DNA of 63,699 bases, filler included, from Euprymna scolopes (taxonomy: Eukaryota), in the NCBI GenBank assembly GCA_053919585.1. It is 5 parts of 5 records of this genome, joined end to end, with 100 filler letters (N's around TTAATTAATTAA, not from the genome) between each part and the next. Parts side by side here need not be neighbours in the genome. Positions count along the whole stretch, not along the records: positions 8,165 to 39,242 come from CM132801.1; positions 39,343 to 50,953 come from CM132803.1; positions 51,054 to 62,511 come from CM132795.1; 2 more parts are not named here. One strand, given 5' to 3'. Each line of letters starts with the position of its first letter. The stretch's first letter is position 1. Of this stretch, positions 13,977 through 56,001 are shown in pieces. Both the position numbers and the translations under genes were made by a program. Under the pieces are notes generated by a model. It saw only the letters and a program-made list of their open reading frames with translations. It was not told the DNA's origin and ran no database searches.

Positions 13977-14538
13977 CTAATGAAAAAGAAAAAAAATCTG
14001 ACATTATCTTCAATGAATTAAGAAATGCTGACAATAAATGAAAAAAAAATAGAAGTAAAATATCATTTTTAGGATATTGCGTTTCAAAGAACATATATCA
14101 CCAGCTCAAACCTTAATAGAAAAAAATACTAGAAATATCTATAGCTACAAATAAAAAAGAACTTAAATCTATTGTGTATTGATAAATTTCTAGAGACGAT
14201 ATTTTTCAAAATAAATGGATCTGGCTGCTTCTTTTGGAAATTTAAGAAAACATGCTTAATTCATCTTGAACAGCAAGAAACTTTTGATCGATTAAAATTA
14301 AGTATGGCAAAGAAACCATTTTAAAAAAATTTGAACCCCAAAAAGATATTACGGTAACCATAGATGAAGAGAAGTGGACAGAGTACTAAACCCTGATGGA
14401 CCCCCAACGCCCACTCGATTGAAGTAACTAGGAGAAATAAATCCTAAACAAGAACTACTATATTAATTTATTTTTATTTGGGACTATTATTCTCATCTTT
14501 ATTAGTTGTTGTTTTCATCTTTATTGGTTGTTGTTTTT

Positions 14539-14581
14539 CACGACGTTTCGGCAAATTATTCCTCTGGCCTTCGTCAAGTGG
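14539..14581 (-). ncRNA. Minimal type I hammerhead ribozyme (C3U variant)
   Basis: Minus strand: cac-TTGACGA-A-GGCC-agaggaataatt-TGCC-GAAA-C-GTC-gtg. Confidence 0.75.
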
Positions 14582-14955
14582 TAACCGCGATGGATAGGAA
14601 CTTTGAATCTCCTAACTGCATTCTCAGCAATCACTGCCATCCGTAGTTGTTGTCGTCTCACCACGTTTTTGGCCAAGTAAACCTCTAGCATGCTTTAGGT
14701 AGGATTGAAACTGCTATCTCCAGACAATGCCCATCTGGAAAACCAACAACCAATAAAGATGAAAACAACAACTAATAAAGATGACAATACTAGTCTGAAA
14801 TAAAAATAAAGTAATATATATAATGCTCCTCTCAAAAATGAATTCCAATTAAGGAATAATATATATACCAATCGGTACGGACTCGACTATGGAAGATCAG
14901 ATAATAAATAAACGTGGATTTATAAGATCAAAGAATCCAACCTTGATCGCCCTTC

Positions 14956-15045
14956 GGGGCCCGTGGCGCAGTTGATAGAGACATTGAATCTCTACGGTTC
15001 CAGATGGGCATTGTCTGAAGATAGCGTTTTTTAATCCTACCCAAA
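14956..15045 (+). promoter_or_regulatory. tRNA-derived (Arg-like) Pol III promoter head
   Basis: GGCCCGTGGCGCAGTTGATAGAG.CATTGAATCTCTA resembles the 5' half of tRNA-Arg(TCT); B box degenerate here but reads AGTTTCAATCC in the inverted copy. Confidence 0.6.
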
Positions 15046-15158
15046 GTGTGTCAGAGGTTTACTTGGCCAAAAACGTGGTGAGACGACAACAACTATGGAT
15101 GGCAGTGATTGCTGAGAATGCAGTTAGGAGATTCGAAGTTCCTATCCGTTGCGGTTAC

Positions 15159-15200
15159 CACCTGACGAAGGCCAGAGGAATAGTTGGCCGAAACGTTGTG
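15159..15200 (+). ncRNA. Minimal type I hammerhead ribozyme
   Basis: cac-CTGACGA-A-GGCC-agaggaatagtt-GGCC-GAAA-C-GTT-gtg; stem I CAC/GTG; palindromic helix III ACGT. Confidence 0.85.
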
Positions 15201-52835: not shown

Positions 52836-55520
52836 TATAAGGGGGAATGCAAAAGTCCAACCCATGTGAAAGTATTCAATTCGAGTTGGGACAGTTGCGA
52901 GGAAGAGATACTAAGAACGTTTCTAGAAATGTCCGTGCTAGTCGAGCAATATATATCTGGGAGAAGACTAGGCGTCCCTTCGTGCCGTCTGACAGGCCCA
53001 ACCTGGACAGTACCATTTCTGCCGCACACCTAAAATGGCACCAGGTGTCACAACTATCACCACAGATCATAGCATAGATTCCCTGTGGAGAACTACTTAT
53101 GCGACAAGGCCACATAGTTTCTGCCTCCAGAGGGTCTGTGCTAAGACAGTCCATATACTCATCAACAGGAGAGGGCAGGGCTTGAACTGAATTACCTGTG
53201 TCAGATGATAATTCCAGTGGAAACAGGTTCTTTAGAGAATGAACCTGTATTGTGCCGCATCCTTGCTTGAGTTGTGCCGTCTTAACCACTCAATCATCTC
53301 TGCTAAACGTTTCCAAAGCAATCCCAAGAACCCAAAAGGGTTTGGGTTTAAGCAGACTCCTGACTAACAGTCTCCAACCTTCAGTCTGTTATGGAATGGC
53401 ACCTTCGAACGACCCTGCGGCTTCTCTCTAAAACTCTATAAATACTCATTGTACTATGTTATGAATTTGGCTAGGCACTTGTCCCGAATTTCTAAGGTTC
53501 TAAGCAGCCTCTCCTGGCTGGGCGGGATTTGCAAAGTAAATTCTGTCAGCCAGGTCCAAGAGCAGCCCCAAATTCTCATTAGGTCGCAGAAACATGTTTG
53601 GGGTCATTGCTTCCAACCCAGATGCCTGATAAGTCAGAGGGTGGTTGTTGATGGCTCTTTGGATGTTGGAAACGATGGCGAGTAATACGAAATTGTCGAA
53701 CTCGCCCCTACCAACTACCTTATAAAGGCAATTATTTGTATCATCCTTTCCCAAGCACCACCGACCCAGGGGGAAAACAGCGGTATGGGTCGGAATTTAA
53801 TCCTGCAAGAGCTAACTGCTGATAGTCGTTACTCAACACAAGCCTCTGAAACAACCACGCACCTCCCAGAAATGTCTTCACGTTGTCACTGTAAATAGCC
53901 GAGGGGATGCCATACAGATTAGAATCTGACCAATGCTTGCAGAAATGCTAAAACGCTCATATCCGGCACTACTTCGACATGCACAGCCCAAATACTAAGA
54001 CATGTGAATATTAGAAGGTACATTTTCACCAATTTGCTTCCTTCCCTAATCCAAAGGTGACCCGTCAAGTCCAGTCTGGTATGACTGAAGGGGTTTTCCA
54101 GTTCAACACGTGAAGTAGGCAAGCTGGACACATTGGAGGTGACCTATCTTGCGTTATACCTCTGGCATAAGGCACATGAAAGGAACCGTCTTTACCGCTT
54201 GTCTGCCCTTGGGCACCCAGTAACGTCGTCTCCACTCCAAGATAGGTGTAATTCCCAGCTGTTGGCACCAGGTATGAGCATATATCATGAGAAGTTTTGT
54301 AATAGGATGATGTTTGGCCAATAAAATTGGGTGTCTAACATCCAACCTAAAGCAGATGGCCCTTCCAATTCTACCTCCTGACCTAAGGCCATTTACTAGT
54401 ACAGGTAGTTTTGCCAACAGGACTTGACAAGGCCAGTTCCGCAGCATACACTTGTCATTGCATTGTCTTCACAAGAACAATGGCTGCTCATTTCTCAATC
54501 ATCCAACCTCTGCAATTAGCCGATGAATTTGAGCACCAATGAGGTCCCTCTAAGGAGCCTTGCAAATGAAAATCTCTACATGGGGAGAACCGTCGAGGAC
54601 TCCTCCCCATTTAGGATGGTAGCATTCCAGGAGCCGCTAGCTATTCTCTGGCAGGGCAAACTAAGGCATGGAAGCTCCTGGGTGGCTCGAGGCATGGTTC
54701 CACTACCCAATAAGTCGGACCTTGGCACCAGAACCCAAGGCGGTCCTTTTATCTTAGACATTCCCCTTGTAATTAAGTCAGCAGGGTTCTGTGGGGATGT
54801 AATGGAAGAAGGGAAGGAACCAAAGTGTGGATCTTAACTCGGCACTCATCCGCTGGATGTCCTTGAGCCTATTCCAGGCGAACTTGTTTTTGCTTATGGT
54901 CCCAGATAAGAGCCAGGCAAGGACCACCTGTGAATCTGTTGTCACATGAACCTCTGTTGGAGAGAATCTCCCCAGGTTCCTCAAAATAACATGCAAGTAC
55001 CTAAGCATAAAGAAAACGGCCATAAGCTCCATCATTGGGGAGGGTCTTTTTTTTTCTTGTGTTTTTTTTTTTTTTTTTACAAGGGAGTCACCTTAGCCTT
55101 CTCAAAGACCAAAAAAGCTCTACGATTCTGCGTGGCATAAGCTGCAAATCCATATGCTTCAGGAAAAGCATCACAGAAAAGTTTGGCCGTTTCTCCCTCC
55201 CCAAATGCTCGGCATGGGAAAGAAATCGTTTCCAGCTTAGAAAGGTCAGGATACTCCTCCAAAGGGATAAGTAATTAGGACACCAGTGCATCTCATCCAT
55301 ACCAGCTCTTCTAAAGCTGGCTCAAAATGCGTCCTCGTATCGAAACTGGCAGACAAGGGGTCGTATACTCTGGCCACCTCCCCAAGAATCTCTCTTCATT
55401 GATGTAGAAGGGTCACAATCAACTGAAGTCAGTGTGTCTGAGAGGGGACGGTATCGATAGCCTAGAGCCTTTTCCCAATCACTGATTACTCGGCATGCCA
55501 TGCTCTCTCATTATTAATTG
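52836..55520 (-). mobile_element. BEL/Pao LTR retrotransposon pol remnant (RNase H, integrase, PHD-like tail)
   Basis: LFCDAFPEAYG, KAKVTPL, TDSQVVLAWL, HPILLAKHHPITKL, PFSHTRLDLTG, YLLIFTCLSIWAVHVEVV, YSDN, PWVGGAWER, LKNLFPLEL. Confidence 0.92.
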
Positions 55521-55739
55521 GACTTCCTAGTTGGCGATTGATATAATTAACTGACTGATGTCCCGAAAGGTGCAATTATTTCGTAATGTCGAAAAAAATT
55601 AGAAACCGAAAGGATTAAACTGTTATATCCAAGGAAGGAACGAGCGCACTTACCTTAGTAACCCTTTCCATTTTTTCATACATCAGTTGGGTTACAACTA
55701 CCACAATTCTCTTTTGATATTAAAAATTCATAACCTGTT

Positions 55740-55742
<3 letters not shown>

Positions 55743-55783
<41 letters not shown>

Positions 55784-56001
55784 CCTTAATTGGAATTTTT
55801 TTTTATTTTGAGATGAGCATTTTATGTTAATTTTATTTTTATTTCGGACTATTAGTCTCATCTTTATTAGTTGGTATTTTTTTTTTTTACCACCTGACGA
55901 AGGCCAGAGGAAGTTGGCCGAAACGTTGTGAACCAATAAAGATTAAAAAAAAAAAAACTAATAAAGATGAGACTAATAGTCCGAAATAAAAATAAAATTA
56001 A
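55743..56001 (+). mobile_element. Truncated copy of the 14463-15324 hammerhead element (inverted tail + HHR + tail)
   Basis: Tail matches 15201-15324; ~55829-55872 is an inverted repeat of ~55957-56002; candidate TSD CTGTTACA (55735-55742, 56002-56009). Confidence 0.85.
55891..55930 (+). ncRNA. Minimal type I hammerhead ribozyme
   Basis: cac-CTGACGA-A-GGCC-agaggaagtt-GGCC-GAAA-C-GTT-gtg. Confidence 0.85.

What the first reader, a model, noticed from the sequence alone, without database searches (positions are those of the whole stretch)
14463..56001. Several independent families of tRNA-promoter + hammerhead ribozyme mini-retroelements alongside Penelope elements
Seen: three sequence-unrelated short elements (14956-15324 +, 22092-21831 -, 48304-48165 -) each put A/B-box tRNA-like sequence upstream of a minimal type I HHR with a palindromic helix III (ACGT, ACACGCGTGT, ACAGTACTGT). 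One family has a further truncated copy at 55.7-56.0 kb, and an RT/GIY-YIG Penelope lies at 51-52.8 kb. Known: PLEs carry minimal HHRs that cleave as dimers, metazoan retrozymes are thought to be PLE-mobilised, and Schistosoma Sm-alpha is a Pol III SINE-like repeat with an HHR. Inference: this lineage has repeatedly fused different tRNA heads to different PLE-type ribozyme tails, giving Pol III-driven, self-cleaving, PLE-dependent SINEs. I cannot tell whether these particular families are already described.
Basis: partly seen in the sequence, partly recalled or inferred. Interest (0 to 1): 0.9.

Follow-up and report, generated by a model that had tools for sequence, protein, structure and literature searches.

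The report
tRNA-headed hammerhead mobile elements
Short non-coding repeats in this animal genome join a tRNA-like promoter sequence to a self-cutting RNA motif, and some copies show the insertion marks of Penelope-type retrotransposons; a similar element is known from blood flukes, so this extends a known kind, and neither cutting nor transcription has been shown here.

Summary
Largely real; the reading needs correcting. Five hammerhead motifs with palindromic helix III are present (4 strict matches, none in 20 shuffles). E2 (22115-21829, minus) has a clear tRNA-derived head 20 bases before a canonical type I hammerhead and is a many-copy family: 584-2,349 contigs per run in three coded organisms. 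Its head lies inside a ~300-base partly tandem unit, as in Schistosoma SMalpha, not at the 5' end. E1 (14463-15324) is one insertion with a 13-base target duplication, inverted arm, partial tandem and two fixed 3' ends shared with the 55.7-56.0 kb copy: Penelope-type marks. But E1's head is only weakly tRNA-like, E3 is a single copy with a dead core, independence of the families is unproven, no tail matches the window's decayed Penelope, and a T5 run after E2's ribozyme should stop Pol III. Best reading: Penelope-mobilised non-LTR retrozymes with an internal tRNA-type promoter. The scan noted related elements on other DNA (retrozymes; a tRNA-bearing Penelope-type repeat without ribozyme), not this combination. 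A 2026 retrozyme preprint named there was not seen. New variant of a known kind.

The parts
14450..14462 (+). left copy of the 13-base target-site duplication of the E1 insertion (AAGAACTACTATA)
   Evidence: occurs only at 14450 and 15325 in the window
14463..14740 (-). E1 inverted, 5'-truncated arm (equals 14998-15273 of the main copy): B-box part of head, body, hammerhead 14583-14536 (C3 changed to T, C17), short form of the tail
   Evidence: 254 identities, 21 mismatches, 4 gap positions to the main copy
14738..14865 (+). E1 partial-tandem tail copy; begins 2-5 bases after the position equivalent to the hammerhead cleavage site
14866..14955 (+). 90-base spacer, inserted with the element (inside the target duplication); probably part of the ~460-base unit
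   Evidence: membership of the family consensus not tested
14957..15037 (+). E1 putative tRNA-like head: A box at 14964, degenerate B box at 15029 (one mismatch in the inverted arm, at 14710); spacing 65
   Evidence: weak, 1.7-6% of random stretches; no hit
15039..15095 (+). decayed second hammerhead-like copy directly after the B box (core lost)
   Evidence: aligns to 15150-15220 better than 500 of 500 shuffles
15156..15203 (+). E1 minimal type I hammerhead: intact core, extra base between positions 9 and 10.1, ACGT palindrome, U17; predicted cut 15197/15198
   Evidence: features as described in PMC4209133
15198..15324 (+). E1 A/C-rich tail with two fixed 3' ends (15273 and 15324; 51-base optional extension)
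15325..15337 (+). right copy of the 13-base target-site duplication
21829..21976 (-). E2 tail, from the predicted cut (21977/21976) to a (TA)13 run; T5 at 21964-21960, T4 at 21861
   Evidence: 21832-21962 was skipped
21962..22026 (-). E2 canonical type I hammerhead: distal helix I (6 bp), internal loop, proximal helix I (5 bp), core, helix II with G-U at 10.1/11.1, 10-base palindrome, GUC site
22022..22092 (-). E2 tRNA-derived head: A box 22085, B box 22039; no cloverleaf; isotype not determined
22093..22115 (-). E2 leader upstream of the head, part of the family; other copies continue 16 bases further into the element's own tail end
   Evidence: tables 2, 7, 8
22118..22144 (+). E2 short inverted arm (27 bases identical to part of the head), ending in a (TA)31 run
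48158..48312 (-). E3: tRNA-like head (A box at 48295, B box 44 further), hammerhead 48219-48172 with G5 changed, short tail, then (TA)33; possible 6-base target duplication at 48092 and 48313
   Evidence: single copy in the window, copy number not tested
51075..52875 (-). decayed, 5'-truncated Penelope-like element (RT, C-terminal GIY-YIG; many stops and frameshifts); 3' end runs into the assembly gap 50954-51053
55743..56001 (.). second E1-family insertion: long arm on minus (tail with extension, into a TA run), short arm on plus (intact hammerhead 55888-55933, tail without extension); 8-base duplication CTGTTACA at 55735 and 56002; no head

Best explanation
These are non-autonomous, non-coding retroelements of the retrozyme / SMalpha type, copied by Penelope-like (PLE) proteins, at least one family of which (E2) carries an internal tRNA-derived promoter just upstream of its hammerhead. 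Proposed cycle: (1) a tandem or partly tandem source is transcribed, from the tRNA-like A/B boxes by Pol III or by read-through (inferred); (2) two hammerhead copies pair through the palindromic helix III and cut after the NUH site, giving a monomer of about 300 (E2) or 460 (E1) bases that starts in the tail and ends in head + ribozyme, possibly circularised (folding computed; cutting and circles not shown); (3) a PLE protein nicks AT-rich DNA and starts reverse transcription inside the RNA at two sites, leaving a more-than-unit main copy, an inverted shorter arm and a target duplication or an expanded TA run (the products are shown, the enzyme is inferred). The partner PLE is not the decayed copy in this window as far as can be seen.
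For: E2 is a many-copy family in three coded organisms: 1,529, 2,349, 584 and 905 contigs laid in runs X1, X7, X6, X2; depth is continuous across the head-ribozyme junction; 25 of the 32 listed (longest) pieces bridge it by 31+ bases on both sides; none of the 24 listed loose ends (of 333) lies in 22011-22030. Variants at 8% or more: 3 of 64 ribozyme positions against 13 of 55 head positions (Fisher p = 0.003); the three are core position 7 (the free one), a change restoring a Watson-Crick pair in helix I (84-94% of depth) and a loop-1 base. 90 contigs over four runs continue upstream of 22115 with a consensus containing the last 12 bases of the element's own tail (by eye). The lowest-energy dimer of the E2 motif has a 10-bp intermolecular helix III and full helix I, 15.3 kcal/mol better than two monomers. 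E1: 13-base duplication around inverted arm + partial tandem + full unit; short arms end at the same base (15273) and long arms at the same base (15324) in two separate insertions, the 'tail' signature that PMC11167929 calls unique to PLEs and PMC8557442 lists with inverted arms and TA targets. 4 of 15 TA runs abut these elements; 1.1% of positions lie so near one. No match to LINE 3' ends.
Against: No sequence match between any element and the window's PLE or the DNA beyond its gap. E2 has T5 13-17 bases after the cut site, a likely Pol III terminator; that stretch was not covered. E2's helix II closes with G-U, and in the computed dimer it slips into the core bases; the designed monomer fold (-8.3) is less stable than the predicted one (-12.3). 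E1's head is not significantly tRNA-like and was never tested for family membership; E3 is one copy with a dead core. The E1 extension (51 bases) is longer than the 30-40 described. Only 1 of 3 inverted/tandem junctions starts at the cut site, and PMC11167929 found cleavage dispensable for insertion in vitro. One of six LINE 3' ends also abuts a TA run.
Confidence: 0.62

Rival explanations
1. Classical 5'-headed SINEs with a PLE-derived 3' end: Pol III starts at the head, and a tail taken from an autonomous PLE's pseudo-LTR recruits the PLE protein; tandems are secondary insertions into existing copies.
For: E3 looks like head + ribozyme + short tail between short duplications. E1's ribozyme has the PLE-type inserted base and no helix III. 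PLEs insert into or beside their own copies (PMC6765202).
Against: E2 copies run through the head's 5' end into leader and tail sequence; E1 carries tail + spacer upstream of the head within one duplication; no tail matched a PLE here; a ribozyme between head and tail would cut the head off a monomeric transcript.
Confidence: 0.15
2. The tRNA-like head is a passenger: E2 spreads as an ordinary promoter-less retrozyme by read-through, while the head (with the T5 stop) makes only a short, non-propagating ~130-base RNA or nothing; E1 is a non-autonomous PLE derivative with no real tRNA head.
For: T5 after the E2 ribozyme; head more variable than the ribozyme; E1 head not detected by tRNA profiles; described retrozymes are said to lack promoters (PMC7761336).
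Against: E2's A and B boxes match the consensus without mismatch and the listed variants inside them (22033, 22078, 22080, 22081) keep it; sister heads also keep A and B boxes (loose ends); SMalpha is a precedent for a working Pol III promoter in such a unit.
Confidence: 0.17
3. Chance nesting: common tRNA-SINE heads happen to lie next to dispersed PLE or retrozyme hammerheads in a repeat-rich genome.
For: The window has other tRNA-like heads without ribozyme and one ribozyme-tail copy without head (55.8 kb). Still possible for E3 and for E1's head.
Against: Excluded for E2 by continuous cover and bridging contigs in three organisms; E1's head and ribozyme lie inside one target duplication.
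Confidence: 0.06

Closest known systems
Schistosoma SMalpha / Sj-alpha SINE-like repeats (Ferbeyre 1998, not held; described from passages of PMC6765202 and PMC8490949)
   Same: Short unit with a Pol III-type promoter followed by a type I hammerhead; tandem copies; promoter ends up at the 3' end of the cleaved monomer. E2 has this layout.
   Different: Different host group; different palindromes; sequence homology not tested; the passages read do not name a mobilising element, whereas here PLE-type marks are visible; E2 has T5 after the ribozyme.
Metazoan non-LTR retrozymes (Cervera & de la Pena 2020, PMC7229834, passages; review PMC7761336, passages)
   Same: Non-coding ~170-400-base units with canonical type I hammerheads, low GC, long target duplications, thousands of copies, found in a mussel; PLEs proposed as mobilisers.
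   Different: Those are said to harbour no promoter and no motif pointing to the partner; here E2 has a tRNA-derived A/B-box head, copies are dispersed partial tandems, and E1 has a minimal ribozyme and a 460-base unit. Circles not shown here.
Penelope-like elements and their non-autonomous derivatives (PMC4209133 parts 1-2 of 4; PMC8557442 passages and section 11; PMC11167929 parts 1-2 of 4)
   Same: Minimal hammerhead with inserted base (E1), partial tandems, inverted 5'-truncated arm, optional 3' extension, AT/TA targets.
   Different: No ORF; no matching autonomous partner found; described non-autonomous forms (MRC1) are not reported in the passages read to carry tRNA heads.
tRNA-derived SINEs (LINE-dependent; general knowledge and curation criteria in PMC10294476)
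   Same: tRNA-derived head with A/B boxes and lost cloverleaf; high copy number.
   Different: Head is internal; a ribozyme follows it; no LINE-like 3' end; inverted arms and double 3' ends are not LINE marks.

Membership tests
SMalpha-type Pol III hammerhead repeat | tRNA-type A/B boxes directly upstream of a type I hammerhead | tested here: met
   E2; likely for E3; inconclusive for E1
SMalpha-type Pol III hammerhead repeat | repeated family in which head and ribozyme are linked | tested here: met
SMalpha-type Pol III hammerhead repeat | Pol III transcription through the unit | not testable with these tools
   only contigs were available; T5 at 21964-21960 is a warning
SMalpha-type Pol III hammerhead repeat | sequence homology to SMalpha | not tested
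   no SMalpha sequence was held; Rfam Hammerhead_1 scores E2 at 13 bits only
metazoan non-LTR retrozyme | non-coding unit of about 170-400 bases with a canonical type I hammerhead | tested here: met
   E2, about 303 bases; E1 has a minimal motif and about 460 bases, so not met for E1
metazoan non-LTR retrozyme | head-to-tail tandem copies | tested here: inconclusive
   partial tandems shown; full dimers or arrays not seen
metazoan non-LTR retrozyme | self-cleavage and circular RNA | not testable with these tools
   dimer fold computed only
metazoan non-LTR retrozyme | no promoter of its own (as stated in PMC7761336) | tested here: not met
   E2 carries intact A/B boxes; function untested
non-autonomous PLE-mobilised element | inverted 5'-truncated arm and partial tandem | tested here: met
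   E1 and 55.8 kb insertions, short arm in E2; absent in E3
non-autonomous PLE-mobilised element | optional 3' extension from two reverse-transcription start sites | tested here: met
   same two ends in 2 of 2 E1-family insertions, 51 bases apart; inconclusive for E2
non-autonomous PLE-mobilised element | 3' similarity to an autonomous PLE | tested here: inconclusive
   no match to the one decayed PLE in the window, whose 3' end is interrupted by a gap; genome not held
LINE-dependent tRNA SINE | tRNA head at the element's 5' end | tested here: not met
   E2 and E1 extend upstream of the head; possibly met for E3
LINE-dependent tRNA SINE | 3' end shared with a LINE or poly(A) | tested here: not met
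   24 comparisons with six LINE ends, lowest p = 0.03 uncorrected
Penelope-like element (51-53 kb) | single ORF with PLE-type RT and C-terminal GIY-YIG | tested here: met
   collinear tblastn matches to 826-852-residue relatives carrying RVT_1 and, in 2 of 5 scanned, GIY-YIG; clade not tested by tree
Penelope-like element (51-53 kb) | hammerhead in the pseudo-LTR | tested here: inconclusive
   only a degenerate motif at about 50881-50843 beyond the gap, not passed by the scan

The most novel reading that the evidence does not exclude
This lineage carries a whole class of 'Penelope SINEs': several families that each acquired a tRNA-type Pol III promoter immediately before a dimer-dependent hammerhead and use PLE proteins to spread, making SMalpha one member of a recurrent design. 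In E2 the T5 stop would make a short head + ribozyme RNA that acts in trans as the dimer partner licensing cleavage of long tandem transcripts, coupling Pol III output to monomer release.
Probability: 0.25. Interest if true: 0.78.

Novelty: new variant of a known kind. Interest (0 to 1): 0.55.

Why it matters
Which enzyme spreads animal retrozymes, and how they are transcribed, are stated as open in the papers read (PMC7229834, PMC7761336). Here non-coding hammerhead units show the PLE-specific insertion signature at base resolution, and one high-copy family has its own tRNA-type promoter. That gives a short, defined template with two mapped start sites to test in the existing in vitro PLE assay (PMC11167929), and suggests that PLEs, like LINEs, have Pol III parasites that repeat annotation would miss because Rfam and ARAGORN do not detect them.

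Tried and rejected
Rfam (whole window and three short stretches) and ARAGORN: no tRNA or hammerhead above threshold. No whole genome held, so no genome-wide count. Pattern scans for E2 in viral contigs and E1 in metagenome contigs: 0 hits. Generic B box + hammerhead scan of metagenome contigs: 24 loci, none an animal element of this kind; 16 of 24 hold prokaryote-type tRNA genes, most matches lack helix II; L018/L020 have a minimal hammerhead after a lone B-box-like word without A box. Homologue search with the GIY-YIG piece alone: 0 of 30 candidates. blastn of heads against phages: only E2 gave weak tRNA hits (E 0.6-8), isotype unresolved. Structure-aware tRNA model: E2 top hit but E = 0.69. 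Folding z-scores of the ribozymes are not significant. Rejected: LINE-derived tails; the window's PLE as demonstrated partner; RNA run X2 as evidence of expression (contigs only, RNA status a guess); small-share runs as evidence of host; other inverted repeats at 33977-34206 and 39592-39873 as further members (no hammerhead). Sequence look-ups in earlier findings: none.
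Full report
Setting. The window is repeat-rich animal DNA of about 34% GC with LINE, LTR and DNA-transposon remains. No genome is held. Public runs holding 14300-22140 come from coded organisms; the four laid belong to organisms A, B and C. 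Some unlaid small-share runs are labelled mollusc metagenome; a mollusc host is therefore a guess, not a result. I call the three elements E1 (15 kb), E2 (22 kb) and E3 (48 kb).

Hammerheads. A scan for core, helices I and II and a palindromic helix III found five motifs: 15156-15203 +, 55888-55933 +, 14583-14536 -, 22018-21969 -, 48219-48172 -. Four pass strict criteria; 0 of 20 local shuffles gave a strict match. Rfam misses them except a 13-bit match to E2. They are not all alike. E1's has no helix III beyond ACGT and an extra base between positions 9 and 10.1, as described for PLE motifs (PMC4209133, parts 1-2 of 4 read). E2's is canonical, with a distal helix I and internal loop; its lowest-energy dimer has a 10-bp intermolecular helix III, 15.3 kcal/mol better than two monomers, but helix II closes with G-U and slips into core bases in that prediction. 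E3's core has G5 changed and is probably inactive (established knowledge of the core).

Heads. With a general B box and tRNA-like spacing, E2 has 0 mismatches (0 of 2,901 random stretches as good), E3 one (0.1-0.2%), E1 three with spacing 65 (1.7% to 6%) (the box consensus is recalled). A sequence-only profile from 11 tRNA genes of the fetched loci scores E2 at E = 9.5e-6, E3's 5' half at 1.2, and misses E1; with structure E2 scores E = 0.69, so no cloverleaf is kept. Pairwise, the heads are not significantly alike (p 0.03-0.22). In E1 a decayed second hammerhead copy follows the B box directly, so all three may have had a ribozyme within 40 bases of the B box.

E2 is a family. Laying contigs on 21832-22142 at 80% likeness gave 1,529, 2,349, 584 and 905 contigs (71%, 67%, all and all of the runs read). 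Cover runs without a break from 21963 to 22115; 21832-21962 was skipped by the tool. 25 of 32 listed pieces bridge the head-ribozyme junction, but these are the longest of 5,387. None of 24 listed loose ends (333 in all) falls in 22011-22030. Variants at 8% or more touch 3 of 64 ribozyme positions and 13 of 55 head positions (p = 0.003): core position 7, a helix I change that restores a Watson-Crick pair, and a loop base; organism C differs from A mainly at the first and last. Loose ends show sister forms: another palindrome (ACATGT) behind the same core in 15 contigs, and another head that by eye shares about 22 of 30 bases with E3's head, so E2 and E3 may be related. At 22115, 90 contigs from four runs continue with a consensus that contains the last 12 bases of E2's own tail (by eye). 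The unit is thus about 303 bases and partly tandem, with the head inside. In X7 the B-box stretch is three times deeper than the ribozyme, so related heads also occur in other repeats.

E1 shows how such units insert. 14463-15324 is flanked by a 13-base duplication found nowhere else in the window. Inside lie an inverted 5'-truncated arm, a tail copy starting 2-5 bases after the cut-site equivalent, a 90-base spacer, then head, body, ribozyme and tail. The 55743-56001 insertion has an 8-base duplication, a long arm running into TA and an opposite short arm. In both, the short arm ends at 15273 and the long arm at 15324. Partial tandems, inverted arms, an optional extension and TA targets are listed PLE features (PMC8557442, passages), and the extension was traced to two internal reverse-transcription starts and called unique to PLEs (PMC11167929, parts 1-2 of 4). 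E2 has a 27-base inverted arm and TA runs on both sides; on tandem coordinates its two ends lie about 78 bases apart (inference). E3 has no inverted arm. Four of 15 TA runs abut these elements, against 1.1% of positions that near; one of six LINE ends does too. E1's copy number and whether head and spacer are in its consensus were not tested, since the single laying call went to E2.

The Penelope. 52875-51075 (minus) matches 826-852-residue PLE proteins in order from the N-terminal region to GIY-YIG; it has many stops and frameshifts, and its 3' end meets a gap. It shares no sequence with E1-E3; beyond the gap lies only a degenerate motif. Its relatives lack a zinc-finger linker by eye, whereas TA targeting is tied to linker-bearing clades in PMC8557442. 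It shows that PLEs exist in this genome, not that it is the partner.

Mechanism. Shown: linked head and ribozyme, high copy number, permuted unit (E2); PLE-type insertion products (E1 family). Computed: dimeric hammerhead fold. Inferred: Pol III initiation, cleavage, circles, PLE enzyme. The main difficulty is T5 at 21964-21960: Pol III from the E2 head should stop 13-17 bases after the cut site, so templates would need leaky termination, a consensus without T5, or read-through. PMC11167929 also found cleavage dispensable for insertion in vitro.

Comparison and novelty. The layout of E2 is that of SMalpha as summarised in PMC6765202 (passages; original not held); size and ribozyme fit non-LTR retrozymes (PMC7229834, passages; supplement unreadable), which are said to lack promoters and partner clues (PMC7761336, passages). 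Ten searches found no description of tRNA-headed, PLE-mobilised hammerhead families outside schistosomes; passages of PMC6962438, PMC8967140, PMC13282606, PMC10294476, PMC10886601, PMC8490949 and PMC6155905 gave none.

Verdict. Real, with one firm family, one well-marked insertion family with a doubtful head, and one dead single copy. New variant of a known kind; interest 0.55.

Noticed in passing
window 1437-1619 +: Decayed U2 snRNA-like copy (27.5 bits, below the gathering score).
   Followed up: no
window 44310-44230 -, 7285-7366 +, 4734-4787 +, 28536-28588 +, 33843-33909 +: Further decayed tRNA-like A/B-box segments with no hammerhead behind them; 7345 and 28570 regions share a short downstream word and may be one SINE family.
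   Followed up: partly
window 52876-55560 -: Decayed BEL/Pao-like LTR retrotransposon remains (motifs recognised from recall) abutting the 5' break of the Penelope.
   Followed up: partly
window 18091-21278, 27382-27925, 32762-36740, 59358-63581, 7386-7823: Several copies of a CR1/Jockey-like LINE with a shared 3' end and poly(A); one copy lies between two TA runs.
   Followed up: partly
window 23484-24420; 40714-41669; 10507-13620: Long inverted-repeat (MITE-like) element; mariner-like transposase remains (recalled resemblance, no Pfam hit); gypsy-like integrase/RT remains.
   Followed up: no
L006:525-590, L013:500-560 (minus), L016/L021 at the match: Well-formed type I hammerheads a few bases downstream of prokaryote- or phage-type tRNA genes (tRNA-Asp in a tRNA array, tRNA-Met) or a tRNA-like end: possible ribozyme processing of tRNA trailers (helices by eye).
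   Followed up: no
L018/L020:515-570: PLE-type minimal hammerhead with ACGCGT palindrome in AT-rich DNA; the two loci diverge about 75 bases after it, as at an element end.
   Followed up: partly
loose ends at 22003, 22040, 22056, 22107: Sister subfamilies of E2 with a different palindrome, different head 5' half or different leader.
   Followed up: partly
window 8065-8164, 39243-39342, 50954-51053, 62512-62611: Assembly gaps written as 44 N + a 12-base linker + 44 N; the linker is an assembly artefact.
   Followed up: no
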